From Deltaproteobacteria bacterium (GTDB lineage: Bacteria > SAR324 > NAC60-12), in NCBI GenBank assembly GCA_002716165.1, contig PAZT01000029.1:1-49456 (forward strand): a stretch of 49,456 bases of DNA. Direction: 5' to 3'. A program made the position numbers and the translations under genes. Below, one piece after another: positions 741 to 48,393 of the stretch; the first letter of the stretch is position 1, and each line of letters starts with the position of its first letter. The notes below the pieces were generated by a model. The model was not told the origin of the DNA. It saw nothing but the letters and a program-made list of their open reading frames with translations, and ran no database searches.

Positions 741-1712
741 ATGGCAGAAAAAGAAAATACTCAATTTTCTCCTGTACAGGATATATTTATTCCCAATATT
801 AAGATTATTGGAGTAGGGGGAGCGGGAGGTAATGTTGTTTCACAGATGGCAGAAGAAAATCTTGACCAGGTTGAAACCATTATTTGCAATACAGATATTA
901 AGGCCCTCAAGCGGAACAAATCTCACAAAAAAATAGAATTAGGTAGGCTACTGACTCGCGGTATGGGTGCAGGTGCACGACCGGAGGTAGGAGAAGGAGC
1001 TGCTGAAGAGAGCATTTCTGAAATTAGTGAAGCAGTTGAAGGTGCTAACATGGTTTTTATTGCTGCTGGTATGGGTGGTGGAACTGGTACTGGAGCTGCA
1101 CCCACCATTGCAAAGATGGCAATGGAAAAGCAAATTCTTACAGTCGGAATTGTAACAATTCCTTTTTCCTTTGAAGGTACCAAAAGAAGGGACTCTGGAT
1201 TGGCGGGAGTTGAACGTCTCAGAGAATTTACAGATACACTGCTTGTAATACCAAATGATAAACTTCTTGACGCTAGTACCCAGAATACCAGTTTTCTTGA
1301 GGCATTTAATATGGTCGACATGGTGCTTATTAATGCAATTAGGGGTATTACAATTCTTCTTAGTGGAGTAGGGGATATCAATGTTGATTTTGCAGATGTT
1401 CAGACGATTATGAAGGGCATGGGAAAAGCTGTGATCGGTCGAGGAAGAGCAAAAGGGAAAGACAGGGCAATCAACGCAGTAGAAGATGCCTTGCACGGTT
1501 CACTTATGGAAGATACTGATATACGTGGTGCAAAAGGAATTCTGGTGCATGTTAATGGGCCTAAAGACACCAGCGCCTATGAAATTCAGGAAGCAATGTC
1601 TCTTATAGAGGATATGGCTGATGAAGATGTTGAACTAATATGGGGTGCCACTTTCACTAAAACAGCAGGAGATGAGGTAACCATGACTGTGATTGCAACA
1701 GGATTAACCTGA
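741..1712 (+). CDS. ftsZ: FtsZ-family tubulin-like GTPase, core domain only (323 aa, no C-terminal linker or tail)
   Basis: GVGGAGGN and GGGTGTGAAP tubulin signature motifs. T7-loop NVDFADV. Ends ...TVIATGLT, where canonical FtsZ continues into a linker and a conserved C-terminal peptide. Confidence 0.88.
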   Translation: MAEKENTQFSPVQDIFIPNIKIIGVGGAGGNVVSQMAEENLDQVETIICNTDIKALKRNKSHKKIELGRLLTRGMGAGARPEVGEGAAEESISEISEAVEGANMVFIAAGMGGGTGTGAAPTIAKMAMEKQILTVGIVTIPFSFEGTKRRDSGLAGVERLREFTDTLLVIPNDKLLDASTQNTSFLEAFNMVDMVLINAIRGITILLSGVGDINVDFADVQTIMKGMGKAVIGRGRAKGKDRAINAVEDALHGSLMEDTDIRGAKGILVHVNGPKDTSAYEIQEAMSLIEDMADEDVELIWGATFTKTAGDEVTMTVIATGLT

Positions 1713-9343: not shown

Positions 9344-10480
9344 ATGAACCTTTATTTAATGCCTGTTAACACTACAATATTTGTTCTGTTATTTACACTA
9401 GGGAGTTTTTTTTTGTTTTCCTGTGGTATGCGTACGGCACCTGTTTTTATTCCAGAAAAAAAATCAAAACAAACAATTTCAGATTTAAAAGTACAGCAGC
9501 GAGATAATCGTGTCCGCCTATCTTGGAAAATAAATCATAAAGAAAGAATTAACAGGCTCAAGATGCTTGATAAAGAAATAGAAGCGGGAGATTTTTTTCT
9601 CATTCATCGGATAATAACCAAGGTTAATTGCAGGAATTGTGAGCCAAGGGAATTACCTGATTTAAAAGTATTGGTCAAAGGAGACTCACTAATTCAATAT
9701 AGGAATCAAGTATTTTTTTATCTGCAGTTTCCTGAAACAGGCTTAAAAATTCATTCCTTCCAGATTAGTCACTTAGGCCCTGATGGAGAAATATTCTCAA
9801 AGTCAAAATCTGTAAGTTTGAGAAGGAGTAATGTTTTTCCGAAACTCCCTTTACCAGAACTGAAAATTGTTCAAATAGAAGATCAGAGTCAAATTTTAAG
9901 ATTTCCTTTTGGAAAAGTTGTACAGCGTAAAAAAATTGAGGTTTTAGACGGTCTTAAAATTGATCAATTGAACGAAGAAGAAAAAAAAAAGAAATCTGAA
10001 GTAAAAAATATAAAAATAGAGCCTCTAGCAGAATTTAAATTATATACTTTAAGAATTTCATGGTCTCAAACTTTAAATCATAGTTTGAAGGTTTTTACTG
10101 GAAAGGGAGATTATTTTGATGAAAAGAAATTATACCGAAATCATCTTTATCGCACATTAAATAGTGAAAATTGGCCGGAAACACCTATTAATACTAAATC
10201 TGTTTCTGACAATTATTTTTTGGACAAACTAAAAATGCAAATTAATGATGTAAGTCCGCCTCTTTTAGCAGATACTCACCCTGATATCTTACCACCAAGA
10301 ATCTCATTTTATATTGATTTATCAGTCAAATATGTAGATACTTGGCATTATAATCTGCGGTTAGTTGACCGTTTTGGGAATGAAAGTGATGCATCAGAAA
10401 GTGTCAGCTTTTATTGGCCAAAATCGGCTTTTTTTGCGAAAAATTATGGGAAAAAAAATTTAGTCCCCCACACTGATTGA
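9344..10480 (+). CDS. lipoprotein, hypothetical (possible Ig/FN3-like beta-sandwich repeats)
   Basis: Signal peptide with lipobox LFSCG. No catalytic motif. Contains an A10 tract at 9981-9990. Confidence 0.55.
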   Translation: MNLYLMPVNTTIFVLLFTLGSFFLFSCGMRTAPVFIPEKKSKQTISDLKVQQRDNRVRLSWKINHKERINRLKMLDKEIEAGDFFLIHRIITKVNCRNCEPRELPDLKVLVKGDSLIQYRNQVFFYLQFPETGLKIHSFQISHLGPDGEIFSKSKSVSLRRSNVFPKLPLPELKIVQIEDQSQILRFPFGKVVQRKKIEVLDGLKIDQLNEEEKKKKSEVKNIKIEPLAEFKLYTLRISWSQTLNHSLKVFTGKGDYFDEKKLYRNHLYRTLNSENWPETPINTKSVSDNYFLDKLKMQINDVSPPLLADTHPDILPPRISFYIDLSVKYVDTWHYNLRLVDRFGNESDASESVSFYWPKSAFFAKNYGKKNLVPHTD

Positions 10481-12421: not shown

Positions 12422-15400
12422 ATGGTTGTTAAAAATAAAAAAAATAGAAGACAAACATCTGCCTTTCATGCTGCTGAAGTAATGTCGCACGATCTATCCT
12501 TGCTTAGAGGTAAGAAATTTTCTAATTATTTTGATGATTCAGAGGTACAAGGGCTATTACCATCTCATGATGTAGAAAAAGAGGTACAGCAATTAAAGAG
12601 AATTGATGTTGATTCATATATTCAAAGAGTTGTAAATCCCTCTGAATCAAAAAATAGACCTAGTGCACCAGAAATAATAAAGCAGTTAGGGAGTAAAATA
12701 ATTTCTGAGGAAACAGATGGACCTTTATATACAGCCGAAATTGAAATTATTATTTCAGATCAAACCCGCAGGCTGGGATTTATTGCCCAGAACCACAAAA
12801 TACAAAACGGTGTGTGGTATCCAGTCCATCATCGTAAAGCTGCAGAGCAAATACGGTTTTTTGCATCTCATAGTATTCCTTTGGTTACATTCATGGACAC
12901 ACCTGGAGCAGCTGCAGATGCAGAAGCAAATTTAGAAAATCAATCTCATAGTATTTCATTTTTGATTAGCGAGATGGCAAACTTGCAGCTCCCTGTTATC
13001 GGAATTGTCTTCGGAGGTGGTTTTAGTGGTGGTGCAATTCCTCTAGCTACAGCAAATATACTTCTTTCTGTCAGGGAGGGAGTATTTAACACAATTCATC
13101 CAAAAGGATTAAGCAATATTGCTCGTAAATATGATCTTTCATGGCAGGAGTCTGCAAAACATATAGGAGTTTCCGCATATGAACTCCAACATCAAGGATA
13201 TTTTGATGGAATTATAGACTACTCATATGATCAGCCTCAAAAAGTAAAAAATATTAGAGATGCTATTGTAGGTTCTGTTGAAGCTACAGAAAAAAACTCT
13301 TGCAAATTTTTGCATGAAAATGATTTCTTTTTCGATCATTATCGAGACAGTATCTATCACTATCTAAATCCGTCAAATCTATTAATTGAAAGTAACCGTG
13401 TGACAGATCGTTCACCTACAGGGACATTGAATATTTTTGGTGATGTTTACCGTTTCATGCGGTACCTGAAATTACGTCAGCGAATCGTAAGCCGTTCTAT
13501 TGATAGCTACTCGCGACTTAGTGCTCGTAAAACTCCAGTTGGGAAGTTACAGGAACGTTTAAAAACAGAAAGACAGGAAAAGTTTAAACAATGGTATAAG
13601 TCTCCATTGGAGGTTCGCTATCAGGAAAAACTTAATAAGCGGTATGAGCAATTTATAAGCTCAAGGGAGGATAGGGAAAAAGAACGAGGTAAATTTGTTG
13701 CTTTTTTTATTGGAGATCCCCGAGAGAATTATCAGAAATCCATAGATGATCTGACATTAGAAATTTTATTACATCTATATAATTATTGGATGGATAGTAC
13801 TTCGGAAAACCTTAAAGAATTAAATAAACAGCTTAGCAAATCAACTCTCCATGATCATCCACCTCATAATCCTGATTTGTTAGACTTACTGAGAACTACT
13901 GAAATATACCAAAGTTTTCAGATTAATTACCAAAATATACTTCTTTTCGATTTGCTTTACAATCAGGTAATTGAAGCGCTTCCAACTATAGCCAATGAGC
14001 TGAAAGGAACAAATCAAATTTCACAAAAATCTGTAGAACATCTTTTTGAAAAAACTGTTGAAGGTGCAATAAAAGAATTTGAAAAGAACTCTGTACAACA
14101 TGAAAGCAAAAACGTGAAATCACAGTTTTTCAAATGGCTCGCAAGTTTTATAGAGCGCAAGGACTGTGATGTTGTTTTGGGTACCATTAGCGAATGGAAA
14201 AAGGTCGTTTTTCCCAGAATGAGTCCACCACTTTTTGGGGTAGTAAGATATTATTTTTCCGGATTGCTCCCATCATTGTACGCAGCGCAACAGAAGAAGG
14301 GTCGTTTTCAGGGGAAAATAACACCACGCAACATAGGTATAAAAGATTTTTGGAACCGCTTGGATCAATCATATAAAGATCTTTTGATCCAGAATCTTTT
14401 GAGGGAATACAAACGCAACGTTATTACTCCTAAAAAAATTATAGATCATTTTTTCAAAGATTTTAAAGAGCTATATTCTGATAGGATAACTTCAAATCCT
14501 GTCAAGTTCCCAGGCTTCAGGGGGGCTATTGAAGATGCCTTACAAAATGGGGTTGTACCATGTGGAGTGATAACTGGATTGGGTACTTTTGCTGGGGAAG
14601 ATAATTCGGATTCTTCTAAAAATAAAGCTCCAAAATCAAAAAAAGTAAAAAGAGACTACCGAGTAGGACTAGTTATAAGTAACGTAGAGTTTCAAGCTGG
14701 TTCTTTCGATATGGCTAGCTGTGAAAAAGTTTGCAGACTGCTTGATGACTGTGCACGATTGAAATTGCCTGTTATATTTTTTATTTCTTCAGCAGGAATG
14801 CAAACCAAAGAAGGAGGGGGATCATTATTTTCCATGGCAGTTATAAATGAGCGCATTACGCGCTTTGTTAAAGATTTAGATCTTCCAGTAGTATGTTTTG
14901 GATTTCGTGACTGTACTGGAGGTGCTCAAGCAAGTTTTGTAACTCATCTGCTTGCCAAAACTTACTATTTTTCTGGTGCGCAAATACCCTTTGCTGGTCA
15001 GCTTGTAGTAGAAAGTCATCTGCCTGCGCATTCTACATTATCAAATTATTTGTCTAATAATCCAGGAACAATGGATGCACTAGTGAAAAATCCTTTTGAT
15101 AAGGGGATTGATAAAAAGCTGCATGAAATTGATCCTCAAATACCTGTTGCTCAATTTTCAGTAGAGGAGGTAATTTCTCGAGTTTTGTCCGGAGAGTACC
15201 AGATATCTGTTGAAGAAGAAGTTAAAGCATATTCTACGCAGGAAAATTTACATATAGGGGATATTAAACGTATTTTGATTCATGCTCGAGGATGTACTGC
15301 CACTAGGTTGATTCAAGGTTCACAAGTCGCTGGAATGGAAGTTGTGCTCGTGGCCTCTGATCCAGATATGGAAAGTTATCCAGCTACTTTACTCAATGAA

Positions 15401-17005
15401 AAAGATAACTTAGTATGCATTGGGGGTGAAACTCCACAAGACAGCTATTTAAATGGAATGAGCGTCATCAGAATTGCAGAGCAAGAGGAAGTCGACGCAA
15501 TTCATCCTGGAATTGGTTTTTTATCTGAGTCTCCTCATTATGCACGAATATGTCGTGAACATGGTTTTAATTTTGTAGGACCGCGTGCTGTAAATATGGA
15601 TAGAATGGGAAATAAGTCAAATGCTATCGCGACAGCAAAAAATTTAAACATACCTGTTGTTCCAGGCAGTGATGGGGCTTTGATGGATCCATCACATGCG
15701 ATGATAGTAGCTTCAGAAATTGGGTTCCCAGTTTTAATTAAAGCTGCACATGGAGGAGGGGGGAAAGGTATTGAGGTAGTTAAAGATCCAGACAAATTTC
15801 AATCTACTTTCACTCGAATGTCTCAGGAGGCTTTAAGTGCATTTGGTAACGGCGATTTGTATCTGGAAAAATACATTGGCTCAATGCGCCACTTGGAGGT
15901 TCAGATTATAAGGGATATGCATGGTAATTCAAAATTGTTTGGCATTCGTGATTGTTCAATTCAGCGGAACTATCAAAAACTTATTGAAGAAACAGCATCT
16001 GGAATTCCGAATAAAATTAGGGAGCAGGTATACCGTTTTTCAGAAAAATTAATTGCGGAAATTGATTACATTGGTGCAGGAACAGTAGAGTTTATTTATG
16101 ATTTGATAGAGAAGAAAGTATATTTTATGGAAATGAATACACGTCTTCAAGTTGAACATCCTGTCTCTGAGATGGTATCTGGAGTGGATTTGGTAAGTCA
16201 ACAATTTGAGGTTGCACAAGGTAGAAATATAAAAAATTTGGATTTTAAACTAAATGGACATGCTATAGAATTAAGAGTGATTGCTGAGAAAGTTGATCTA
16301 AATGATAATGGTGAATTATTATTTGTTCCAGATCCCGGTCATGTAACAGAAGTTTACTTTCCAGAAAAATCAAATGTGAGGGTTATTCAAACGATTTCTT
16401 CTGGATCAGTGGTATCCCCATTTTATGACAGCCTTGTTGCTCAAATAGTATGTTGGGGTAGATCACGAAGTGATGCCATCAATCGTTTAGTTGATTATTT
16501 AAAACGGGTTAGAATCCATGGAGTTTCAACAAACCTTGCTCTTAATCGTGCAATTTTGAAGGATGATATTTTTAAGAAGGGAAGTTTCAGTACTGGATTC
16601 CTTGCTGATTTCTTTAAGCGAATCAACTCTAAGAAACTCTTAAGTGAATCTCTTAGGGATTCCGGATCTTTAAATAAATCTGTAGATACTGAATCCATCA
16701 AACTTGAAGGATCAGATGAGCTAAAAGTACTTTCTCCTCAAATGGGAGGCTTCTATCGTGCTCCATCACAAGATGATGAACCGTTTGTAAGTGAAGGACA
16801 GGTCATTGATGTAAACGAAACACTTTGCCTAATTGAATCTATGAAAGTATTTACGGAATTAAAACTTGCAGACTATAAAAGTTCTGACGGCAATACTCTG
16901 TTTTCAGATGATGTAAAATATAAAGTCAAAAAAGTTATTGCAGAGGACAAAAACACTGTCAATCAAGGTGATTTGCTATTTGTTATGTTGCCTATTGTTG
17001 TCTAA
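12422..17005 (+). CDS. single-chain multidomain biotin-dependent acyl-CoA carboxylase (AccA-like, unknown insert, AccD-like, biotin carboxylase, BCCP)
   Basis: AccA-like: FMDTPGAAADAEAN...GGGFSGGA. AccD-like: GVITGLGTF...FISSAGMQTKEGGGSLFSMA...CTGGAQASF. ATP-grasp biotin carboxylase: GFPVLIKAAHGGGGKGI and EMNTRLQVEHPVSE. Biotinyl domain: CLIESMKVFTEL, with the Lys codon at 16844-16846. Confidence 0.9.
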   Translation: MVVKNKKNRRQTSAFHAAEVMSHDLSLLRGKKFSNYFDDSEVQGLLPSHDVEKEVQQLKRIDVDSYIQRVVNPSESKNRPSAPEIIKQLGSKIISEETDGPLYTAEIEIIISDQTRRLGFIAQNHKIQNGVWYPVHHRKAAEQIRFFASHSIPLVTFMDTPGAAADAEANLENQSHSISFLISEMANLQLPVIGIVFGGGFSGGAIPLATANILLSVREGVFNTIHPKGLSNIARKYDLSWQESAKHIGVSAYELQHQGYFDGIIDYSYDQPQKVKNIRDAIVGSVEATEKNSCKFLHENDFFFDHYRDSIYHYLNPSNLLIESNRVTDRSPTGTLNIFGDVYRFMRYLKLRQRIVSRSIDSYSRLSARKTPVGKLQERLKTERQEKFKQWYKSPLEVRYQEKLNKRYEQFISSREDREKERGKFVAFFIGDPRENYQKSIDDLTLEILLHLYNYWMDSTSENLKELNKQLSKSTLHDHPPHNPDLLDLLRTTEIYQSFQINYQNILLFDLLYNQVIEALPTIANELKGTNQISQKSVEHLFEKTVEGAIKEFEKNSVQHESKNVKSQFFKWLASFIERKDCDVVLGTISEWKKVVFPRMSPPLFGVVRYYFSGLLPSLYAAQQKKGRFQGKITPRNIGIKDFWNRLDQSYKDLLIQNLLREYKRNVITPKKIIDHFFKDFKELYSDRITSNPVKFPGFRGAIEDALQNGVVPCGVITGLGTFAGEDNSDSSKNKAPKSKKVKRDYRVGLVISNVEFQAGSFDMASCEKVCRLLDDCARLKLPVIFFISSAGMQTKEGGGSLFSMAVINERITRFVKDLDLPVVCFGFRDCTGGAQASFVTHLLAKTYYFSGAQIPFAGQLVVESHLPAHSTLSNYLSNNPGTMDALVKNPFDKGIDKKLHEIDPQIPVAQFSVEEVISRVLSGEYQISVEEEVKAYSTQENLHIGDIKRILIHARGCTATRLIQGSQVAGMEVVLVASDPDMESYPATLLNEKDNLVCIGGETPQDSYLNGMSVIRIAEQEEVDAIHPGIGFLSESPHYARICREHGFNFVGPRAVNMDRMGNKSNAIATAKNLNIPVVPGSDGALMDPSHAMIVASEIGFPVLIKAAHGGGGKGIEVVKDPDKFQSTFTRMSQEALSAFGNGDLYLEKYIGSMRHLEVQIIRDMHGNSKLFGIRDCSIQRNYQKLIEETASGIPNKIREQVYRFSEKLIAEIDYIGAGTVEFIYDLIEKKVYFMEMNTRLQVEHPVSEMVSGVDLVSQQFEVAQGRNIKNLDFKLNGHAIELRVIAEKVDLNDNGELLFVPDPGHVTEVYFPEKSNVRVIQTISSGSVVSPFYDSLVAQIVCWGRSRSDAINRLVDYLKRVRIHGVSTNLALNRAILKDDIFKKGSFSTGFLADFFKRINSKKLLSESLRDSGSLNKSVDTESIKLEGSDELKVLSPQMGGFYRAPSQDDEPFVSEGQVIDVNETLCLIESMKVFTELKLADYKSSDGNTLFSDDVKYKVKKVIAEDKNTVNQGDLLFVMLPIVV

Positions 17006-17021
17006 TTATCAGCAAATTATC

Positions 17022-18035
17022 ATGAGTCAGCTATTAGAAACTAATGCAAATAATCCTCCACTACCTAATGTTGGATTAGAAAAAATTCTTCATCCTGTCT
17101 CTTTAGAAATAGAGATTCTCGAGTCTCAGATAATCAGTGATATAAAAACTGATATTCCATTACTAAATAATGTTAATGAATATATTATTAGTTCTGGCGG
17201 CAAGCGTCTGCGTCCAACATTGGTTCTTTTAGGTGCTGAAATGTTTGAGGGGATTAATGAACAGGTAATTCAGGCTGCAAAGGTAATTGAATACTTACAT
17301 ACCGCAACACTTCTTCACGATGATGTAGTTGATGGGGCTGAAACTAGAAGATCGAAACAGGCAGCTTACAGAATTTGGGGAAATGAAGCAAGTGTTCTTT
17401 CTGGAGATTATCTTTTTGCAATGGCTTTTTACCTGCTTACCAAAATGCGAAACAAAGAAGTTTTGAGTTTGATGTCGGAAACAACTACGAGGATGGCACG
17501 TGGAGAATTATCACAGCTAACTAGTTCTTTTGGTGAAAGTGATGAAGAATATTTTGAAATAATCATAAACAAAACCGCATGTCTTTTCGCTGCTGCAATC
17601 AAAACAGGGGCATTATTGGGGGGTGGTTCATTAGATTCTGCAGGATCGCTTTATGAATATGGTATGTCTTTAGGTATTGCTTTCCAGATTGTAGATGATG
17701 CTCTAGACTATACTGATGAGCATAAAACTGGGAAACCAGTTGGAGGAGATTTGCAGGAACGAAAAATTACCTTACCTTTGAGGCATTTGTTAGAAACAGC
17801 TAATATCTCAGACAGGAGAAGACTGGACAATATTTTATCTAATCAAAAGATTGAAAAGCCTCAAATTGAGGAAGTAGTTAATATGATGAAAAATTATAAC
17901 TCCATCCAGCATACTCTGGAGTGCTCAAAAAACTATTCTCTTGAGGCTCAACGTAGCTTAAAAAAATTCCCAAGATCAAGTATGCGTCAAACTCTTTTTG
18001 AAATTGCTGATTTTGTTGTCTCAAGGCAAATATAA
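17022..18035 (+). CDS. ispB: all-trans polyprenyl (octaprenyl-type) diphosphate synthase
   Basis: First DDxxD motif LLHDDVVD and second motif FQIVDDALDY. GKRLRP motif. ATG at 17022 chosen because the track start at 16938 overlaps the carboxylase gene. Confidence 0.88.
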   Translation: MSQLLETNANNPPLPNVGLEKILHPVSLEIEILESQIISDIKTDIPLLNNVNEYIISSGGKRLRPTLVLLGAEMFEGINEQVIQAAKVIEYLHTATLLHDDVVDGAETRRSKQAAYRIWGNEASVLSGDYLFAMAFYLLTKMRNKEVLSLMSETTTRMARGELSQLTSSFGESDEEYFEIIINKTACLFAAAIKTGALLGGGSLDSAGSLYEYGMSLGIAFQIVDDALDYTDEHKTGKPVGGDLQERKITLPLRHLLETANISDRRRLDNILSNQKIEKPQIEEVVNMMKNYNSIQHTLECSKNYSLEAQRSLKKFPRSSMRQTLFEIADFVVSRQI

Positions 18036-19673: not shown

Positions 19674-19847
19674 ATGAGTGTTTCACGTGATCAAGTAAAT
19701 GATGCAATGGTTCGTTTTTTAGAACGTGGCGGTTCAATTCGACGCTACGAAAGAGTTGTAGGTGAGCCAATTTTAGGCAGTGATATATGGCTTACAGAAG
19801 ATACCATGGAGCTGATAGAAACTAATGACTCTGATTTCTGGGGCTAA
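19674..19847 (+). CDS. small acidic protein, 57 aa, paralogue A (unassigned family)
   Basis: Own translation: MSVSRDQVNDAMVRFLERGGSIRRYERVVGEPILGSDIWLTEDTMELIETNDSDFWG. AGGAG at 19662-19666, 7 nt before the ATG. Paralogous to the next ORF, with mainly synonymous differences in the conserved blocks. Confidence 0.65.
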   Translation: MSVSRDQVNDAMVRFLERGGSIRRYERVVGEPILGSDIWLTEDTMELIETNDSDFWG

Positions 19848-19942: not shown

Positions 19943-20101
19943 ATGGGTGTTTCCAGTGAAAAAATCAATGATGCAATGGCACGATTTATAATGAGCAGAT
20001 ACCAGCGTACAGTCCATGTACCTGATATGAGAAGTGGATTAGTATTCTCCCAGAATACCATGGAGCTTATTGAAACGCATGATTCTGATTTTCTGGGATA
20101 A
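19943..20101 (+). CDS. small acidic protein, 52 aa, paralogue B (unassigned family)
   Basis: Own translation: MGVSSEKINDAMARFIMSRYQRTVHVPDMRSGLVFSQNTMELIETHDSDFLG. AGGAG at 19933-19937, 5 nt before the ATG. Shares the VS...(V/I)NDAM.RF and TMELIET.DSDF.G blocks with paralogue A. Confidence 0.65.
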   Translation: MGVSSEKINDAMARFIMSRYQRTVHVPDMRSGLVFSQNTMELIETHDSDFLG

Positions 20102-20325: not shown

Positions 20326-22554
20326 TTAGACACTTCTCTGGGACTGTTCAAATAATTTCCAGCAAATAATAGGAATTTCTTTTAGTATGTCAGTATTATT
20401 GATGCTATAAACTTTTGCTTTTGTAAATGCTTGAGCGTTTTTTTTTCTAATTTTGCTCTTAATTATTTTTTCTCCTCCCCAAAAGTCTCCTTTTGAAATA
20501 AGATGCTTTTTTGAAGAGGTGTTACTTTGCATACCATTAAGCTCAATTTTACCTTCCTTAACTAACATTAGTCCATCATAAACTATTTTCTCACCTTTTG
20601 AGTAATTTTTGAGTGTCATATTTTGTGCAATTTGACTCTGAACCGGTGATGAAATTGATTCCCCAAATAACCAAGTTTGTTGAAGAAACTCGGTGATTTC
20701 ATGGGTTTTTTTAAGTTGTTCCATCAATTTGTTTCGATGTACAAACTCTTTGAACAAAATTTCTGGAATTCTTAATGTTTCAATGTGACTTAATGCACGG
20801 TATATCCCAGTACTTTTAAGGCCAAACAGAACTGCAAGGTCTCCTATAAGAGTTCCGCTTGATAACTGATAACTCGTTTTTTCTTCTGAAGAAAGGAATT
20901 CTGCAACACCGGTCAGCACTAGAAAGGCATGATCTGGGATTTCCTTATCCTTTAACAAAATTGTTCCGGGACTGACTAGCTCACGTTTGCAATTAAGCAG
21001 CATATGTATTTCACCTTCTTCAACGTTCGGATAATATCCCTTGAGGTAAGAACCTCCAAATTCAAGAGAATAATCTTCATGACCTTCAATTAAAACATCA
21101 GTGCTACCAAAAGTTACCCCACATCCAATTAACTGTTCTTCCTTTGATAGCTTATGGGCGGTGTGAGCTAATATGATTTTTTCTGATTTGTCATCCTTGA
21201 AATCATTAGCTTTGCCGTGAATAATTCCTCCCCCGATATCAATTTTCTTTACTTGGACCGGAAGTAGGTAATCTTTCCAGACCTTATTCTTTAATTTTTT
21301 GCTTATTCCTGGTTTTTTCTTATTTTCCTCGAGCATCTTATTAAGTACATCATGAGATGCTACATCCGCTAAATGTGCGTAAGTCGCATACCCGGTTTCC
21401 CAAAGTGTCCTGAAGAAGAGGATATTTGTTTCAACGGGATGAGGTGAATATACTGGCTTTACTTCAAGTCCATCAATATTGTTCCATTCATCAAACTCAA
21501 GGTCGCAAACATCGAAATATTCTGCAAATGTACTTTCCTCAATTGACATAAGTGAAGATAATTTTTTTGTCACTGAGGCACGCACCATTTGAGTGGAATA
21601 GTATTTAATTTTATGGTTTGTGTGGATAAGTGTGGTAAGTCCAGCAAAATGATCATCATGGGAGTGTGTATGAAAAATTCCTTCTACTTCATTTACATCA
21701 ACGCCAATGGCATTGAGTGTATGCGCAATGTTAGGGCCAACATCAATTAGAAAGATTTTCCCTTGAAAGCAAATAACACTTGCCATACAGGGACGATCAA
21801 TATCCCAGCCGTCCCCCTCTCCGGTATGGACCACTGAAAAATAATCACGCTTGAAATAATGATTTTCAAGTTGGTAGGGAGTCTCATAAGTTTCATTTTT
21901 AGCTAGATTCAGATCTATTTCAACAACCTCATCTTTATAAATAAATTCGTAACAGTTTATCCCCTTTCTTACTACTTTAACTCCGTTAATTACTTCTACA
22001 GGTTCATGATCAACAATTACTGAATGCAACAAATCGCTACTAGGTTTTATTTCTCCAAATGCAAAGAATAGCTTTATTCTCATCATCTCTTTTGCTTGCT
22101 CTCTAGGTAAGCCCGAGGCCATAATTTCTTCTAGACTCGTCAAACCATAATTGCCGCTATAAATGTAATTCATCTGAGCATTTACAACGTTTTCTTGTCC
22201 TATTAGTAGAGGTTTTACACCAGTATTATTTGGGTGATTTGGTAGGATCATACCTTGTCGGTAAAGCATCTGTAGTACTGGGAATTCTGCTAAATTTGCA
22301 AAGTCTCCTTTTTGAACACTAAGGTCTGAAAGAAGGATGGCATTAGGTCCCGTTTCATTAGTAATTTTGCCATGGGAATGGTGTTTTTGGTCTGATTCAG
22401 AATTGTTTTCTAATTCATAATCACGAATCTTACCTGCTTTCATCAAGTGTTTGACGCTGTCTGCTGGGCATCCACATAGTACAAACAATTCTGCTTCTGG
22501 AATCTCCAACCAGAAAACGCCAGTAGATATTTTCGTCTTAGAAATTTTTGACAT
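20326..22554 (-). CDS. metallo-beta-lactamase-fold hydrolase fused to C-terminal cyclic-nucleotide-binding domains (possible cNMP-regulated phosphodiesterase)
   Basis: 742 aa. HxHxDH motif FHTHSHDDHFAGL near codon 297. C-terminal third shows cNMP-binding beta-barrel features (GTLIGDLAVLFGLKSTGIYRAL...; GDFWGGEKII). N-terminal ~250 aa unassigned. Confidence 0.78.
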   Translation of the reverse strand: MSKISKTKISTGVFWLEIPEAELFVLCGCPADSVKHLMKAGKIRDYELENNSESDQKHHSHGKITNETGPNAILLSDLSVQKGDFANLAEFPVLQMLYRQGMILPNHPNNTGVKPLLIGQENVVNAQMNYIYSGNYGLTSLEEIMASGLPREQAKEMMRIKLFFAFGEIKPSSDLLHSVIVDHEPVEVINGVKVVRKGINCYEFIYKDEVVEIDLNLAKNETYETPYQLENHYFKRDYFSVVHTGEGDGWDIDRPCMASVICFQGKIFLIDVGPNIAHTLNAIGVDVNEVEGIFHTHSHDDHFAGLTTLIHTNHKIKYYSTQMVRASVTKKLSSLMSIEESTFAEYFDVCDLEFDEWNNIDGLEVKPVYSPHPVETNILFFRTLWETGYATYAHLADVASHDVLNKMLEENKKKPGISKKLKNKVWKDYLLPVQVKKIDIGGGIIHGKANDFKDDKSEKIILAHTAHKLSKEEQLIGCGVTFGSTDVLIEGHEDYSLEFGGSYLKGYYPNVEEGEIHMLLNCKRELVSPGTILLKDKEIPDHAFLVLTGVAEFLSSEEKTSYQLSSGTLIGDLAVLFGLKSTGIYRALSHIETLRIPEILFKEFVHRNKLMEQLKKTHEITEFLQQTWLFGESISSPVQSQIAQNMTLKNYSKGEKIVYDGLMLVKEGKIELNGMQSNTSSKKHLISKGDFWGGEKIIKSKIRKKNAQAFTKAKVYSINNTDILKEIPIICWKLFEQSQRSV

Positions 22555-25745: not shown

Positions 25746-26168
25746 TTAACGAATTTGATTGCATTTCATTCTAATATCCTTGAATTGATAAGATTTACGT
25801 TTCCAAATTTCTTTAGAGCGTATTTTTTTTGATACATTCCCTTTTTCTTTGAGATTTTGGAGAAGCTTTCTTTCACCGGGACTGAGAGGTAGATTTGAAC
25901 GAAGTTTAACCCAAATGTTTTGGATAAGCAGTACTTCTTGTTCAAGGTTCATTTCGGGTCTTTTTTTTATTTTTCTTATTATTTTTTCTGCCTCAATTTT
26001 ACATTTTGTTTTTTTATAATGCTTCATAAACATACGGTCTGTGGCATATTCCTGTGATTCAGCAGAATTTCCTCCAGCAAGCAAAAATAATATTAAAATA
26101 GAGTAAAATTTTAAGCAGTAAAATAAGTTTATATTCCTATTCTTTTGTTGTTTTAAATTCTTGCCCAT
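25746..26168 (-). CDS. hypothetical secreted, lysine-rich protein
   Basis: ATG start. Hydrophobic signal-like segment FYSILILFLLAGGNSAES. No family recognised. Confidence 0.4.
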   Translation of the reverse strand: MGKNLKQQKNRNINLFYCLKFYSILILFLLAGGNSAESQEYATDRMFMKHYKKTKCKIEAEKIIRKIKKRPEMNLEQEVLLIQNIWVKLRSNLPLSPGERKLLQNLKEKGNVSKKIRSKEIWKRKSYQFKDIRMKCNQIR

Positions 26169-26397
26169 TATACTAGTTATTAAATTCTATTCATTTAATT
26201 CTTTCTCAAGTTTCTCAGATACTTGCCGATGTATAGTATAGTTTGATAAGTTTTTACCACATCTAACTTTCAAAAAGCAAATTTAACACCTTTAACTTTG
26301 GTTATATTTTTTCCTTTTGAAATAATTATTTTTTAGATTAAAAAAATGATTAAGTTTTTCACATACTTTTTATTTAATTCGGTGACAGGTTAAACAA

Positions 26398-26622
26398 ATG
26401 ACTCAAACAGAAAAATTATCAGAAAAATTTAGTAAAGCGGTAGGAGTTGATCTCAACAAACAATTTGAGCACCAAGTTTATGGTACTATAATGGAATTGA
26501 TAGATTCTCTAGAAAATAGATTAATTGATAACGAAACTAAAGTTGACTATGCAACGCATATATTTGCAAAAGCGCTCGACGAAATGGTAGATTATCTAGA
26601 GTCACCAAGATTGCTGAACTGA
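26398..26622 (+). CDS. hypothetical protein (74 aa, acidic, helical)
   Basis: ORF only. No motif recognised. Confidence 0.35.
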   Translation: MTQTEKLSEKFSKAVGVDLNKQFEHQVYGTIMELIDSLENRLIDNETKVDYATHIFAKALDEMVDYLESPRLLN

Positions 26623-27036
26623 AAATAATTTTATCTTAAGATAAGATTTATCTATCGAGGAGTTAAGGCAAATATTTGCTCGGGCTTTTATAATTTTAAT
26701 TTAAAGGATTCTTCCTAATAATTAAATGACCCATCCGTCATGTTTTTAGATCGGCTTCAATAATTTTTATCATTTTATTCTTTAATACATTCCTTTTATT
26801 TCTCTCTACACTAGTTTATCTTACTATATTTCCTATTCCCAAAGATCTTAAATATTTAACCTATTAAAATGAAGTATTTCTTTCTCTGAGAATTTAGTTT
26901 CCTTCAAGTAAAAATAGTTATGAGATTTAAAGAACAAATTTAAGATGGTTATGAAGTTACTTTTAAAAAAATCAAGACCCCAATGTTGAGTAAAAGATGA
27001 CTTATTATTTATGTTTTGTTTTATAAAATCTGAAGT

Positions 27037-27627: not shown

Positions 27628-27871
27628 ATAAGATAGTTTAAAATAGAATGTATCACCAAAACCAAGTTCTTAAAACAAAATTTTATCAAAAATTATAATA
27701 TTTTTAGACGATATTTGATTTTTAAAAAGATGTGACCATTCATCATTTAAATTATGTCGTTTCTGAATTTTTCAATAGCCTTCAATTAAGCATCATAAAA
27801 ATATTTTTTTAGTCAGTAAGTGTGTGGGGATCTTTTTTTGGCATATAACAGAATGTTCCAAAATATGTAAG

Positions 27872-27961
27872 TGGCGGAGGGAGAGGGATTCGAACCCTCG
27901 GTACACTTTCGCATACGGCACATTAGCAATGTGCTGGTTTAAGCCACTCACCCACCCCTCC
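27872..27961 (-). tRNA. tRNA-Ser (anticodon GCU), class II with long variable arm, CCA encoded
   Basis: Hand-folded reverse complement: acceptor GGAGGGG/TCCCTCC, D-arm with GG, anticodon stem GCACA/TGTGC with loop TTGCTAA, long variable arm, T-arm GAGGG-TTCGAAT-CCCTC, discriminator G, CCA. Confidence 0.9.
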
Positions 27962-28267
27962 GGAAGAAACTGAGTATTCACAATTCCGTATGTTCAAAGT
28001 CGCTCAGACAGGATGTTAAGTTTAAGGAGTCAAGCTTACATTGTGTTTTAATTAATATATATTTGGCAAGTTTTTCTTTACAAATTGCTGATTTATTATT
28101 TAAATTTTTGTTTATTTAAAATGAGACTTTAATTTTTGATGATGATAAATGTTCTTTTACTTAGTTTGACTTGAGAGCAGTCCTAATTTTCTGCTAAAAT
28201 TAACTTAATTCTTTAATTTTCATCAGGTTTTTTTAACAATTTAATTATAATTATCAGGAGAAAAAAA

Positions 28268-28925: not shown

Positions 28926-30230
28926 TTAAATAATTTGATTTCCTTTTTTAAGCTCCTGATAATGATTCAAAACTTTCTGGCGTGATCTCTGTGCGAGAGC
29001 TATTGCTTCTTTACGTAGATAATCATCATCTGGTTTCCAGTTTCGTGTGCGCAAACGATAAGGTCTCAACCCTAAATCGATGTCTTCATTTTTACAAAAT
29101 AATTCATCTATTTGAGGCCTTTTCACCCATGTATCCTTCAAGTTAATTTCTAGAGCGTAATACCAACTTGCAAAATTTTGTAATCGCTGATCTTCAAAAT
29201 ACCCAGCAGGTTTGAGAGATTCAACAAATTTTCTAAGTGCAGGATTTTGTTGAAATCTGTCATAATCTACTACATATAGGCTTTCTGAAAGAAACAGTGG
29301 AGCCCCATGTAGAAGAAGTCCCTTGGATTTAAGTGTGTTTCCTGTTTGCACAATTTCTAGACCAACACTACCCTTTTCAGCATTCATCAGAGTTTCTTCA
29401 ACATCGTCTACTGACTCGATGCGGAGCTGTGGGTATGCGGCCATCACGATACCACTGTAGCGACCTTTAACAAAAACATGGCGTCCGTGTTTTGATAGCG
29501 TTTCAAAATCAATTGGACTGCGTCGGCTTCCTCCTTTTTTTGAAATAAGAAAAAATCCAACCATATCCTGTACTTCCCCTCCAAAAACTTTGTTATAACT
29601 ACTTAGCATCGCTGAACCTGCAACACGAATACTAGTTGGTTTTTCCAACTGGTAGTTATACATGCCCCATTTAGTTACTTGGGTGGGATCACCCAAATAA
29701 TGCTGTGTCATGGAAAGAAGTTCATCCAGTCCAACAACCGTTAGATCAACTTCATCAAGCTTAATTAGAGATGATCCATTATGTGGTTCCTCACCCTCAA
29801 CACGTATTCGAGTTTTGCCAATTTGCCAGTCATAACCGAGGAAGCCTACTCGGTAAGGACGAAGTTTTCGTTTTCGATCCACAGAAATTGAAAAACATGA
29901 CGGCGCAGATTTTGAAATTTCTTGAAGAAAACCGAGAGCTTGCGAAAGGTCCGTAGTGCTTCTTCGCTTGCTTTCAGCCAGCACATTTAAAATTTTATCA
30001 ATTTCATCTCCATTGATCCCCATACTTTTCAAATTGTTAAGGAAATTATTCAACGTGCGACCCGTACGGGGGACTGCACATGTAAGGTCAAATGATGGTT
30101 TGAAATTTAATTTAGACAAAACTAAAATTTTTCGTAATTTTTCATACTTACTCTGTAGCAAATCAGAATTGCATCTTAGTGTAAATACCGAAGATAGCCT
30201 AAGTAATTGTAAAAAAGATTCTCGTATCAT
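28926..30230 (-). CDS. expanded HisG-like (ATP phosphoribosyltransferase fold) protein, function uncertain
   Basis: AVPRTGRTLNNFLNNLKSMGI resembles the HisG N-terminus (A.P.KGRL......L...GI). DLTVVGLDELL resembles D.GI.G.D.L.E. GLEIVQTGNTLKSKGL resembles the PRPP-loop IVD.V.TGNTL..NGL. Extra N-terminal, internal and ~100-aa C-terminal segments. Alternative TTG start at 30242. Confidence 0.5.
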   Translation of the reverse strand: MIRESFLQLLRLSSVFTLRCNSDLLQSKYEKLRKILVLSKLNFKPSFDLTCAVPRTGRTLNNFLNNLKSMGINGDEIDKILNVLAESKRRSTTDLSQALGFLQEISKSAPSCFSISVDRKRKLRPYRVGFLGYDWQIGKTRIRVEGEEPHNGSSLIKLDEVDLTVVGLDELLSMTQHYLGDPTQVTKWGMYNYQLEKPTSIRVAGSAMLSSYNKVFGGEVQDMVGFFLISKKGGSRRSPIDFETLSKHGRHVFVKGRYSGIVMAAYPQLRIESVDDVEETLMNAEKGSVGLEIVQTGNTLKSKGLLLHGAPLFLSESLYVVDYDRFQQNPALRKFVESLKPAGYFEDQRLQNFASWYYALEINLKDTWVKRPQIDELFCKNEDIDLGLRPYRLRTRNWKPDDDYLRKEAIALAQRSRQKVLNHYQELKKGNQII

Positions 30231-30525
30231 TGCTGAAAACAAACAAGATTTTTGTAATAATATTACCTGAAATAGTTAGAGAAAACCTGAAATAAATATA
30301 ATCTCAAACTGCAGAATATGACTGTAAGTTATCCCTCCCTTTTTGTAGGGTTCTATGTTGTCAGAGTAGGATTTTACTCTTGTTGATTTAATCTATAAAA
30401 TCTAAATTTCACATGTTTTAAAAGAAGTCGATTGTCTCAAGATTGAACCTTTTATTGCTGAATTGAGTATAAACTCCAAAAAATGAAATATGTTTAGTTC
30501 ATAAGCTTAAATAAAAGCCTGAATT

Positions 30526-45667: not shown

Positions 45668-46597
45668 TTATTGTTTTTCTGATTTAAGTTTGTATACCCA
45701 TTTTTGTGCAAGTTCTCGATCTTTCATGAGTGGAAAGGCCATCTTGCAGCGCTCTTCTAGGAATAATTTGGCTATAGATTGAGCAATGTTACGAACCCTA
45801 CCAATAAAAGATGCTCTTGCAGAGACACTAATTGCCCCTGCTGCATCAAGTTGATTAAATGTGTGTGAGCATTTAAGAACATAATCATATGCTGGAAATA
45901 CTAGTCTTTGCTCTAAAGCACGATTCGCTTCCTTTTCATAATCATTGAAGTGCCGAAAAAACAGTTCGGTATCAGCAACTTCAAATGTATATTTTGAATG
46001 TTCAAATTCTGGTTGCCTGAAAATGGCTGAGTAACTTACCCCTTTTGTGTATTCTAGATCAAAAACATTATCCACGTCTTGTAGGTACGTGGCGATTCTC
46101 TCAATACCATAGGTCAGTTCTGCTGATACAGGATGGCACTCTATACCTCCCACCTGTTGAAAATATGTGAACTGCGTTATCTCCATACCGTCAAGCCAGA
46201 TTTCCCAGCCAAGCCCCCAAGCCCCAAGAGTAGGAGCTTCCCAGTTGTCCTCAACAAATCTTATATCGTGATCAATAGGGTTTATGCCGATTGCTTGGAG
46301 TGATTCAAGATAAATTTCTTCTACATCATCTGGTGAAGGTTTCAAAATTACTTGGTATTGGTGATGTTGATATAGGCGGTTTGGATTTTCACCATAACGA
46401 CCGTCAGCTGGACGCCGAGATGGTTCAACATATGCTACATTCCATTCTTCTGGTCCCAGCGTTCTAAGGGAAGTCATCGGATTCATTGTTCCGGCTCCAG
46501 TTTCAACATCATACGGAGATGAAATTATGCAGCCCTTTTTGTGCCAGTACTCATTTAGTAGTATGATAATTTCTTGTATGGTATGTTGAGTCCTCAT
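45668..46597 (-). CDS. glyQ: glycine--tRNA ligase alpha subunit
   Basis: 309 aa, highly conserved: FQ.II..L..YW...GC......D.E.GAGT, RRP.DGRYG.NPNRL and [12 protein letters not shown]. Confidence 0.96.
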
Positions 46598-48393
46598 TCC
46601 AAAATTCCTGAATCAAATTTTAGTAATTTAAGATCTCTGAATAGAATTTTCTTGAGATTATTTTCGAGCCAACTCAGCGCAAGATTGTTTTTTTTTATTT
46701 GTATCAGCTTTAATTCCAATTTTGTCTTTTTCACAATTTCTTTCTGGTTCTTAAAGGCTTTTTCAGCATTTTTGCATTCTTGTTTAGTATCGATGCATAT
46801 TTTTTTTAGGTGTTTTAGGGCTCCAGGTTTGATAATTAAGGAACAGGGATTAAAATAGGAGCGAAAAATTTTGGATTTTAGTTGAACTAAGTCCTCAGAT
46901 TTCTGGATAGAAAATGGATTAAACCATAGCTTTCGCTCAACTTGAGTTAATTTAAAGTTCATTTCAGAAGCATCATTTTCATCTTCACAAAGTAGTAGAG
47001 CTCTTTGAAGCTTTATTTTGTGTGCGTTTTTTTCAGCATTTCCCCAATTTGTACTTGTAGACAAAGCATCACTCAGCAGTACCACAAGTGATTCTAATTT
47101 TTTAAGCACATCATATTCTTGAGAGTAAAGCAAATGATCTCTTTCTGCGTTCATGTTAATAGTTTCTGCAGCTTTTTCATTTTTCAACAATTTTTCCTTA
47201 AGATCCATTAGTTCAGTTTTCTGGAGTCTCAATGGTTTTTTTTTAATTTTTGATTCTATATCATTTAATAAAACAAATTGACTGAGTGGCTCAAGAATTA
47301 AGTCAAATTCTTTACTCCAGTCCAAGATTTGCCCTTCAAAATCAATGACTTTGCAGTCTTGGAGTTTTAGCAATACGTCAAAATCTTTCAGATAATCATC
47401 TTCAGGATTAATTTCTTCAACTGTGACTAATTTCACATTTCCAATTTCCTTTAATAATTTTGTCAATAAACTGTTAATAATGCTGTACTTGCATAAGCAT
47501 AAAATTTGTAGTGTGGACTTTTTAACTTTTACATTTTTCTTTTTATTAATTCCTACATTTTCTTTAAGCAATTCTAAAATTAAGCGCTTAAAAGGGGGAT
47601 TATTTAAAGAGCATTCATCAAGTTTTATAAGATGTCCAATACTCATTTTATCGAATGTGATGTTTTTTATTGAGTTAAAAGGAATGCCAGGAAAAAGATA
47701 ACAGCCTTTATTTTCTCGTAGAATTCCAACTACCTGTTTAGGGTCAGAAATCTTGCTTTGTTCTCTCAATATCATTTTAATTGAATTATCAGGCGATAAT
47801 TGATCCTGGTTAGTGTGAAATTTTCGGATATTATTAAAAGGTATTAAAGTATTTAAGGGAATTTCCTCTAGGTTATTTTTTAAAACTGAACCAGAATCAG
47901 AGATATATTCAATTGACTGAAAATATCCATTTAGCGCTATTCTTGGAAATCTTGGAATATGATGATTTAGAAGAAGTTCCTTTGAAGATATTTTGAACCG
48001 CATTTTATTGATCAACTCAAATATAGGATTTAAAGTTAAGATCGAATGGAGTTCATCCTCTATAGATTTTATTACCATAACAAGGTTAATCCCTTTGGTA
48101 GAATTAATCTGCAAATTATCCAGTAATTCAAGCCAATGTTTTGCTGATTCAAATTTTATGGGTGAAAAAAATAGCCAATCTGGATTGTGATTCAATATTT
48201 CACTGGAGATATTTTCTGAATCCTTTAACCAATTTTTTGTTTTAGCAGAATTTGAAACTTCATATAATTTGGTATTCAGTGGATGGGAAATATGTTTTTG
48301 TAGTTGACTAATTAGTATATTCCAGTCATCGCTTGAGAAGCCTAAGCCAAAAAGCTGCATTTCACGGATAAATTCAGACGGTTTGAGAGGCAA
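46594..48393 (-). CDS. hypothetical 599-aa protein, Lys/Leu/Asn-rich with predicted coiled-coil C-terminal third
   Basis: Long uninterrupted ORF. Its TGA overlaps the glyQ ATG (ATGA at 46597-46594). No motif recognised. Confidence 0.6.

What the first reader, a model, noticed from the sequence alone, without database searches (positions are those of the whole stretch)
12422..17005. 1527-aa single-chain biotin carboxylase with inverted domain order and a ~400-aa unknown insert
**Domain reading (from the sequence)**
- aa ~100-290: AccA-like carboxyltransferase.
- aa ~290-690: no similarity I can recognise.
- aa ~690-900: AccD-like carboxyltransferase, without the Cys4 zinc ribbon of free-standing AccD.
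- aa ~949-1400: biotin carboxylase.
- aa ~1440-1527: BCCP with an ESMKV biotinylation motif.

**Established knowledge**
- Typical bacterial ACC is made of four separate subunits (AccA/B/C/D).
- Eukaryotic ACC and the actinobacterial fused enzymes place BC-BCCP before the carboxyltransferase, with the beta-like half before the alpha-like half.

**Why it stands out**
- Here the carboxyltransferase comes first, in alpha-then-beta order, and BC-BCCP comes last.
- The insert could be a scaffold analogous to the eukaryotic central domain, or a regulatory module.
- Substrate (acetyl-CoA or another acyl-CoA) cannot be told from the sequence.
Basis: partly seen in the sequence, partly recalled or inferred. 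Interest (0 to 1): 0.65.

Follow-up and report, generated by a model that had tools for sequence, protein, structure and literature searches.

The report
Single-chain bacterial acetyl-CoA carboxylase (AccS type)
The 1527-residue gene is real, but it is an ordinary SAR324 copy of a known single-polypeptide acetyl-CoA carboxylase (Shewanella AccS, also called AccADCB), whose structure, including the "unknown insert", has already been solved.

Summary
The ORF at 12422..17005 (+) is intact and encodes 1527 aa.

It is not an artefact. More than 100 full-length homologues of 1500-1550 aa exist, in isolates, single-cell genomes and MAGs. Gene order around it is conserved across SAR324 contigs.

It is not a new architecture. 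The protein aligns end to end (aa 14-1525, 1446 bits) with PDB 9kkm/9w4a, "Acetyl-CoA carboxylase multifunctional enzyme AccADCB" of Shewanella oneidensis (AccS, SO_0840, 1517 aa). That enzyme is biotinylated in vivo. E. coli accABCD corrects the growth defect of a strain that under-expresses it. An AlphaFold model of aa 1-940 matches 9kkm_A at TM 0.80.

The insert is a conserved all-helical domain found only in this family. Its only structural match is 9kkm, not the eukaryotic central domain.

Catalytic and biotinylation motifs are invariant, so the best reading is a working acetyl-CoA carboxylase for fatty-acid synthesis.

Two modest additions: the family spans SAR324, PVC phyla, Acidobacteriota and Desulfuromonadales, wider than the literature I found states. 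No Pfam or NCBIfam model names it.

Interest is low.

The parts
12422..17005 (+). accS-type gene: single-chain acetyl-CoA carboxylase, 1527 aa plus stop codon
   Evidence: ORF list and translation. End-to-end match to PDB 9kkm_A AccADCB, aa 14-1525, 1446 bits.
12422..13297 (+). N-terminal helices plus the AccA-like carboxyltransferase half (aa 1-292; Pfam ACCA aa 123-292). Contains the invariant G-x-S-G-G-A-I-P-L-A loop at aa 200-209.
   Evidence: Pfam and NCBIfam. S. aureus AccA alignment. Invariant columns. Model matches AccA structures.
13298..14521 (+).
   Evidence: No Pfam or NCBIfam hit. About 30 invariant residues across 41 homologues. AF2 gives an all-alpha model with pLDDT 79. The only PDB fold match is 9kkm_A, E 1.3e-17. 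Only 97 hits among 1.84 billion representatives; the 17 long hits (>=1100 aa) are 1126-1639 aa, and in nearly all of them the matched stretch ends at about aa 610-850.
14522..15196 (+). AccD-like carboxyltransferase half (aa ~701-925) without a zinc ribbon. Motifs S-S-A-G-M-Q-T-K-E-G (aa 789-798) and T-G-G-A-Q-A-S-F (aa 832-839).
   Evidence: NCBIfam accD aa 747-891. 2f9i_B aa 746-866. No CxxC motif. Invariant columns.
14585..14656 (+). Low-complexity loop rich in Ser and Lys (aa ~722-745), present in the window protein and six of its closest homologues in the alignment (66-92% identical). Predicted disordered.
   Evidence: Alignment A1 columns ~935-963. pLDDT below 50 at aa 729-740.
15263..16618 (+). 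Biotin carboxylase (ATP-grasp) domain, aa 948-1399. G-G-G-G-K-G at aa 1111-1116, E-M-N-T-R at aa 1237-1241, Q-V-E-H-P at aa 1243-1247.
   Evidence: Pfam and NCBIfam. PDB biotin carboxylases at E ~1e-100. Motifs invariant. E1245 aligns with the position mutated in 9kkm, E1238A.
16619..16726 (+). Linker rich in Ser, Leu, Lys and Glu between BC and BCCP (aa 1400-1435)
   Evidence: Composition. Poorly conserved columns.
16727..17002 (+). BCCP (biotinyl) domain, aa 1436-1527
   Evidence: Pfam Biotin_lipoyl aa 1436-1481, and TIGR00531 BCCP.
16844..16846 (+). Codon of K1475, the predicted biotinylated lysine in E-S-M-K-V
   Evidence: Motif position. E1472, M1474 and K1475 are invariant in 30 homologues.
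17023..18035 (+). Downstream polyprenyl synthetase gene. The likely ATG is 17 nt after the accS stop. It is context only, not part of the enzyme.
   Evidence: Sequence. Pfam polyprenyl_synt. Same neighbour in SAR324 loci.

Best explanation
The gene encodes the SAR324 orthologue of the AccS (AccADCB) type of acetyl-CoA carboxylase. This is one polypeptide that carries all four functions of the usual bacterial AccA/AccD/AccC/AccB enzyme.

Proposed mechanism:
1. The biotin carboxylase domain (aa 948-1399) uses ATP and bicarbonate to carboxylate biotin. The biotin is attached to K1475 of the C-terminal BCCP domain.
2. A flexible linker (aa 1400-1435) lets BCCP swing to the carboxyltransferase site.
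3. That site is formed by the AccA-like half (aa ~90-292) and the AccD-like half (aa ~701-925). There the carboxyl group is passed to acetyl-CoA, giving malonyl-CoA for fatty-acid synthesis.
4. The helical domain (aa ~293-700) joins the two carboxyltransferase halves. It most likely acts as a rigid brace and as part of the dimer architecture.

What is shown here: the domains, the conserved catalytic motifs, co-linearity with the Shewanella enzyme, and structural agreement with it.

What is inferred: enzymatic activity, acetyl-CoA as the substrate, the dimeric state, and the role of the helical domain in this particular protein.
For: - **Co-linearity.** The protein matches S. oneidensis AccADCB (PDB 9kkm/9w4a, 1517 aa) over aa 14-1525 at 1446 bits. 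The C-terminal half alone gives E 6.5e-186.
- **Structure.** The AF2 model of aa 1-940 (pLDDT 84) superposes on 9kkm_A at TM 0.80 over 930 columns with 43% identity. The next hits are AccA and AccD of S. aureus, E. coli and Chloroflexus.
- **Motifs.** All expected motifs are present and invariant in 30-41 homologues:
  - GGGGKG, EMNTR and QVEHP in the BC domain.
  - M-K in the BCCP domain.
  - GxSGGAIPLA in the AccA-like half.
  - GMQTKEG and TGGAQASF in the AccD-like half.
- **Function of the Shewanella orthologue.**
  - S. oneidensis has no homologue of AccABCD as a complex and keeps only one extra AccB homologue (PMC4793157).
  - AccS is a ~170 kDa biotinylated protein. Reduced AccS causes a growth defect that E. 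coli accA+accD+accBC corrects (PMC11602165).
- **Genuineness.** Full-length relatives occur in isolates, single-cell genomes and MAGs. Gene order is conserved around the gene in SAR324.
Against: - There is no biochemical evidence for the SAR324 protein. Identity to the characterised enzyme is only about 43-47%.
- Substrate specificity is inferred from orthology and from the AccA/AccD type of carboxyltransferase.
- Position 791 in the AccD-like glycine motif is Ala here, where most homologues have Gly. This column varies (G/A/S) across the family and the adjacent G792 is invariant, so this is weak evidence against activity.
- I could not test whether this genome also has stand-alone accA/B/C/D. 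None lies in the 49-kb window.
- The paper describing 9kkm is not in the searchable library. The role of the helical domain therefore rests on the PDB title ('holoenzyme dimer') and on my models.
Confidence: 0.88

Rival explanations
1. The enzyme has the same architecture but acts on a different substrate. It would be a propionyl-CoA or other acyl-CoA carboxylase, used for anaplerosis or carbon assimilation in SAR324 rather than for fatty-acid synthesis.
For: Substrate cannot be read from sequence with these tools. Automated source names vary: 'acetyl/propionyl-CoA carboxylase alpha subunit', 'ATP-grasp domain-containing protein'. All NCBIfam equivalog models score below their cut-offs.
Against: The carboxyltransferase halves are of the AccA/AccD type, not the PccB/12S type used by propionyl-, methylcrotonyl- and long-chain acyl-CoA carboxylases. 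The characterised orthologue is functionally replaced by E. coli ACC (PMC11602165). CT motifs are invariant between SAR324 and Shewanella-like sequences.
Confidence: 0.07
2. The ORF is an assembly or frameshift artefact that joins separate accA, accD and accBC genes.
For: None found. The window is probably metagenome-derived, and I could not check read coverage.
Against: The same single ORF of 1500-1550 aa recurs in more than 100 protein clusters. It is also found in cultured Shewanella, Psychromonas and Paraglaciecola genomes and in SAR324 single-cell assemblies. The recombinant Shewanella protein has a solved structure as one chain. The junction regions are themselves conserved.
Confidence: 0.01
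3. The protein is a degenerate or regulatory paralogue that no longer catalyses carboxylation. The real ACC would be encoded elsewhere in the genome.
For: The rest of the genome was not available. A791 replaces a usually conserved Gly.
Against: Every catalytic and biotinylation motif checked is intact. The gene is conserved at 65-94% identity, with conserved gene order, across SAR324 lineages. That implies purifying selection on the whole length.
Confidence: 0.04

Closest known systems
Shewanella oneidensis AccS (SO_0840, 'acetyl-CoA carboxylase multifunctional enzyme AccADCB'; PDB 9kkm, 9w4a)
   Same: Same domain order: AccA-like, helical central domain, AccD-like without zinc ribbon, BC, BCCP. 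Same length (1517 vs 1527 aa). Co-linear over aa 14-1525. Same catalytic motifs. The model superposes at TM 0.80.
   Different: Only about 43-47% identical and from a different phylum (SAR324 vs Gammaproteobacteria). It carries a short Ser/Lys-rich loop (aa ~722-745), which six of the closest homologues in the alignment also carry, and Ala at position 791. There is no divergent LysR-type accR gene next to it. It follows a TPR-protein gene on the same strand after a 33-bp gap and precedes a polyprenyl synthetase gene.
Heteromeric bacterial ACC (E. coli or S. aureus AccA, AccB, AccC, AccD)
   Same: Homologous catalytic modules and presumably the same two-step chemistry. The CT halves match AccA and AccD structures, and the BC domain matches AccC at E ~1e-94 to 1e-104.
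   Different: Four functions sit in one chain. A ~400-aa helical domain lies between the alpha and beta halves. There is no Cys4 zinc ribbon. From my own knowledge, that ribbon in E. coli AccD is tied to nucleic-acid binding and autoregulation.
Eukaryotic ACC, and actinobacterial single-chain carboxylases (LCC of Mycobacterium avium; the multidomain ACC of Saccharopolyspora)
   Same: Single-chain, multi-domain, biotin-dependent carboxylases with a non-catalytic region between catalytic modules (papers listed).
   Different: Their order is BC-BCCP-(central domain)-CT with the beta-like half before the alpha-like half, and their CT is of the 12S/PccB type. Here the order is CT(alpha)-helical-CT(beta)-BC-BCCP. 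The helical domain shows no detectable fold similarity to any other PDB entry, including eukaryotic ACC.

Membership tests
AccS / AccADCB single-chain acetyl-CoA carboxylase | Domain order AccA-like, central helical domain, AccD-like, BC, BCCP, all in one polypeptide of about 1500 aa | tested here: met
   Pfam and NCBIfam coordinates. Co-linear alignment to 9kkm_A over aa 14-1525.
AccS / AccADCB single-chain acetyl-CoA carboxylase | Presence of the family-specific helical central domain | tested here: met
   Sequence aligns through this region to 9kkm_A. AF2 model of aa 290-700 hits only 9kkm_A (E 1.3e-17, TM 0.65). Invariant residues are shared with homologues.
AccS / AccADCB single-chain acetyl-CoA carboxylase | Intact BC, CT and biotinylation motifs | tested here: met
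   GGGGKG 1111-1116, EMNTR 1237-1241, E1245, M1474-K1475, SGGAIPLA 202-209, GMQTKEG 792-798, TGGAQASF 832-839. E1245 aligns with the E1238A site of the deposited mutant.
AccS / AccADCB single-chain acetyl-CoA carboxylase | AccD-like half lacks the N-terminal Cys4 zinc ribbon | tested here: met
   No CxxC motif anywhere in the protein.
AccS / AccADCB single-chain acetyl-CoA carboxylase | Replaces stand-alone accA/accC/accD in the genome, as in S. oneidensis (PMC4793157) | not testable with these tools
   Only a 49-kb window is available. It contains no other acc gene.
AccS / AccADCB single-chain acetyl-CoA carboxylase | Biotinylated in vivo and catalyses acetyl-CoA to malonyl-CoA | not testable with these tools
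   Requires experiment. For the Shewanella orthologue the evidence is a streptavidin blot and complementation by E. coli acc genes (PMC11602165).
AccS / AccADCB single-chain acetyl-CoA carboxylase | Divergently transcribed LysR-type activator accR next to accS (a Shewanella-type locus feature, not a feature of the enzyme) | tested here: not met
   Upstream genes lie on the same strand: 2-hydroxyacid dehydrogenase, an unknown 378-aa protein, and a TPR protein. No LysR-family hit was found among the window's ORFs of 100 aa or more that were scanned, i.e. all non-overlapping ones. This concerns regulation, not membership of the enzyme family.
Eukaryotic-type ACC / actinobacterial single-chain carboxylase (BC-BCCP-CT) | BC-BCCP N-terminal to a 12S/PccB-type CT with the beta-like half before the alpha-like half | tested here: not met
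   The order is reversed, and the CT halves are best matched by AccA and AccD.

The most novel reading that the evidence does not exclude
The AccS architecture may be a widespread, probably ancient or repeatedly transferred, alternative form of bacterial ACC, rather than a curiosity of Shewanella and a few gammaproteobacterial genera. It would be the sole ACC in SAR324, Lentisphaerota/Kiritimatiellia, Planctomycetota, several Acidobacteriota orders and Desulfuromonadales. Its helical central domain has no relatives outside the family. Some Planctomycetota homologues carry an extra ~115-aa insertion in it. That domain might be a lineage-tunable regulatory or assembly module that replaces the lost zinc-ribbon autoregulation.
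Probability: 0.35. Interest if true: 0.35.

Novelty: new member of a known kind. Interest (0 to 1): 0.15.

Why it matters
- **Annotation.** No Pfam or NCBIfam model reaches its cut-off for the whole protein, and none covers the central domain. Public records therefore call these proteins 'ATP-grasp domain-containing protein' or 'carbamoyl-phosphate synthase large subunit'. Metabolic reconstructions of SAR324 and PVC genomes could wrongly score ACC as absent or incomplete.
- **Otherwise.** This is a housekeeping enzyme of a known type.

Tried and rejected
- **Artefact hypothesis.** Rejected on recurrence of the ORF in independent assemblies and isolates, and on conserved gene order.
- **Eukaryotic central domain.** I looked for fold similarity between the insert and the eukaryotic ACC central domain or any other fold. 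Only 9kkm_A is significant. All other hits have E >= 0.75 and TM <= 0.18, and they are generic helical repeats.
- **Publication for 9kkm/9w4a.** I searched for it and for earlier reports of the family in SAR324 or PVC phyla. Nothing is held in the library. 'AccADCB' occurs in one paper, only as a gene list.
- **Promoter and terminator scan.** Counts around the gene were no higher than in shuffled sequence, so nothing can be said about the transcription unit from consensus motifs.
- **Possible split forms.** Hits of 600-1000 aa to the insert are probably contig-end fragments. I did not examine them.


Full report
**Observation**

The window holds one uninterrupted ATG-started ORF at 12422..17005 on the + strand. 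It encodes 1527 aa and has no ambiguous bases.

| Region (aa) | Match |
|---|---|
| 123-292 | Pfam ACCA, E 1.4e-27 |
| 747-891 | NCBIfam accD model, E 9.6e-10 |
| 746-866 | S. aureus AccD (2f9i_B) |
| 948-1395 | Biotin_carb_N, CPSase_L_D2, Biotin_carb_C |
| 1436-1481 | Biotin_lipoyl |
| ~293-700 | no Pfam or NCBIfam match |

- The motif E-S-M-K-V sits at aa 1472-1476.
- The protein has no CxxC motif, so the zinc ribbon of free-standing AccD is indeed missing.

**Is it an artefact?**

No.

- A search of 5.8 billion proteins returned more than 100 clusters of full-length homologues. They are 1500-1550 aa long, 46-92% identical and cover 97-100% of the query. Where named, they come from SAR324, Lambdaproteobacteria, Planctomycetes, Verrucomicrobia and Lentisphaerae.
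- A scan of one genome per species found full-length copies in several groups:
  - SAR324 MAGs and single-cell genomes. The best is 94% identical (SAR324 isolate ALOHA_A2.5_126), which places the window in SAR324.
  - Lentisphaerales, Kiritimatiellia and Planctomycetota.
  - Acidobacteriota: Bryobacterales, Vicinamibacterales, Holophagales and Thermoanaerobaculia.
  - Desulfuromonadales.
  - Cultured Gammaproteobacteria: Shewanella, Psychromonas, Motilimonas, Paraglaciecola and Arenicella.
- Gene order is kept in most of the closest SAR324 loci, complete in four of them. The order is 2-hydroxyacid dehydrogenase, unknown 378-aa protein, TPR protein, this gene, polyprenyl synthetase, response regulator, indole-3-glycerol-phosphate synthase.
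- The junctions between domains are themselves conserved.

**What it is**

- Against PDB sequences the protein aligns from aa 14 to aa 1525 with chain 9kkm_A (also entry 9w4a). The score is 1446 bits with E = 0. The chain is "Acetyl-CoA carboxylase multifunctional enzyme AccADCB", 1517 aa.
- The N-terminal 950 aa alone give E 9e-242, and that alignment runs straight through the "unknown" region. The C-terminal 594 aa give E 6.5e-186.
- Foldseek identifies the entry as [quoted passage not shown], released 2025-11-19.
- This protein is AccS (SO_0840). [quoted passage not shown] It listed AccS as the only S. oneidensis match to E. coli AccA, AccC and AccD, with one additional AccB homologue (PMC4793157).
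- A 2024 paper reports the following (PMC11602165):
  - AccS is a ~170 kDa biotinylated protein.
  - Lowering its expression (loss of the LysR-type activator AccR) causes a growth defect. Either accS or E. coli accA+accD+accBC corrects it.

**Structure checks**

- An AlphaFold2 model of aa 1-940, built with 40 homologues, has mean pLDDT 84 and pTM 0.83.
  - It superposes on 9kkm_A at TM 0.80 (normalised to the query) over 930 columns with 43% identity.
  - The next hits are AccA and AccD subunits of S. aureus, E. coli and Chloroflexus.
- A separate model of aa 290-700 is all-alpha, with 18 helices and pLDDT 79.
  - Its only significant PDB match is again 9kkm_A (E 1.3e-17, TM 0.65).
  - Every other hit has E >= 0.75 and TM <= 0.18, and is a generic helical repeat. 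No eukaryotic ACC central domain appears.
- Used as a query against 1.84 billion cluster representatives, the insert finds only 97 proteins.
  - The 17 hits of at least 1100 aa are 1126-1639 aa long.
  - In nearly all of them the matched stretch ends at about aa 610-850, the position it holds here.
  - The shorter hits look like fragments.
- The insert is therefore a conserved, family-restricted helical domain. About 30 of its residues are invariant in 41 sequences, for example R344, R347, R352, W391, W456, E526, W592, K593, R599, W644 and D653.

**Catalytic competence**

All motifs below were checked in 30-41 homologues.

- **BC domain.** Invariant: G-G-G-G-K-G (aa 1111-1116), K1186, E-M-N-T-R (aa 1237-1241), Q-V-E-H-P (aa 1243-1247) and R1285.
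  - E1245 aligns with the residue mutated in the deposited E1238A structure.
  - From my own knowledge, this position corresponds to E296 of E. coli biotin carboxylase.
- **BCCP.** E1472, M1474 and K1475 are invariant.
- **AccA-like half.** The loop G-x-S-G-G-A-I-P-L-A (aa 200-209) is invariant or nearly so.
- **AccD-like half.** G-M-Q-T-K-E-G (aa 792-798) and T-G-G-A-Q-A-S-F (aa 832-839) are invariant or nearly so.
  - From my own knowledge, these glycine loops correspond to the oxyanion-hole loops of E. coli carboxyltransferase.
- **Only deviation.** Ala is at position 791 where most homologues have Gly. That column varies (G/A/S) across the family, and the neighbouring G792 is invariant.

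**Mechanism**

The best-supported reading is a working single-chain acetyl-CoA carboxylase.

1. The BC domain carboxylates the biotin on K1475.
2. The Ser/Leu/Lys/Glu-rich linker (aa 1400-1435) lets BCCP reach the site between the AccA-like and AccD-like halves.
3. The carboxyl group is transferred to acetyl-CoA, giving malonyl-CoA.
4. The helical domain connects the two carboxyltransferase halves. It probably braces them and contributes to the dimer named in the PDB title.

- Shown here: domain content, motif conservation, and sequence and structure agreement.
- Inferred: activity, substrate, oligomeric state, and the role of the helical domain in the SAR324 protein.
- Because the zinc ribbon is lost, the AccD-type nucleic-acid-binding autoregulation known from E. 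coli (my own knowledge; see also PMC2831308, listed) cannot operate in the same way.

**Context**

- The gene follows a TPR-protein gene after a 33-bp gap. A polyprenyl synthetase gene follows it, with a likely ATG 17 nt after the stop.
- There is no divergent LysR-type regulator like Shewanella accR, and no other acc gene among the window's ORFs of 100 aa or more that were scanned, i.e. all non-overlapping ones.
- The rest of the window is ordinary chromosomal housekeeping: ftsZ, moaC, pheT, folE, metK, aroE, xseA and glyQS.
- Consensus promoter and terminator scans were no better than shuffles.

**Rivals**

- A different acyl-CoA substrate cannot be strictly excluded. It is unlikely, because the carboxyltransferase is of the AccA/AccD type and the orthologue is replaceable by E. 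coli ACC.
- A degenerate paralogue is unlikely given intact motifs and strong conservation.
- An assembly artefact is excluded for practical purposes.

**Novelty and interest**

- The architecture is known. The window protein is a new, uncharacterised member in another phylum, about 43-47% identical to the characterised enzyme.
- Two modest points go beyond the literature I could read:
  - No Pfam or NCBIfam model names it or covers the central domain. Public names are therefore generic or wrong.
- I could not find the structure paper in the library, so these points may already be published.
- Interest is low.

Noticed in passing
window 19674..19847 (+) and 19943..20101 (+): Two tandem small ORFs (57 and 52 aa) are paralogues: 47% identical, with a shared 'INDAM.RF' motif near the N-terminus and a 'TMELIET.DSDF.G' C-terminus. 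They lie in the ~970-bp gap between the indole-3-glycerol-phosphate synthase gene and a 742-aa MBL-fold/cNMP-binding protein gene. The pair is conserved at the protein level in five of the six syntenic SAR324 loci (L001-L004, L013); in L006, which ends about 120 bp further on, only the first copy was found. They are likely real small genes of unknown function.
   Followed up: partly
alignment A1 columns ~545-668; proteins P0085 and P0120 (Planctomycetota-type homologues of 1620-1660 aa; also P0082, P0084, P0107): A subgroup of AccS homologues carries an extra insertion of about 115 aa inside the helical central domain. The domain therefore tolerates, or uses, lineage-specific elaboration.
   Followed up: no
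window 741..1712 (+): The FtsZ ORF is only 323 aa. It has the Tubulin/FtsZ GTPase domain and the FtsZ_C domain, and ends straight after the latter with no long C-terminal linker or tail. I did not check whether this is typical for SAR324.
   Followed up: no
window 9344..10480 (+), 28926..30242 (-), 46594..48393 (-): Three sizeable ORFs (378, 437 and 598 aa) have no Pfam match. The 378-aa one lies two genes upstream of accS, with the TPR-protein gene between them. It is conserved in SAR324 loci at only 24-72% identity.
   Followed up: no
window 20326..22554 (-): A 742-aa protein combines a metallo-beta-lactamase fold region (aa ~253-371) with a C-terminal cyclic-nucleotide-binding domain (aa 526-607). 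It is conserved in neighbouring SAR324 loci.
   Followed up: no
window 27872..27961 (-): tRNA-Ser(GCT) is the only RNA gene detected. It lies in the most AT-rich stretch of the window, GC 0.29 at 26001-28000.
   Followed up: no
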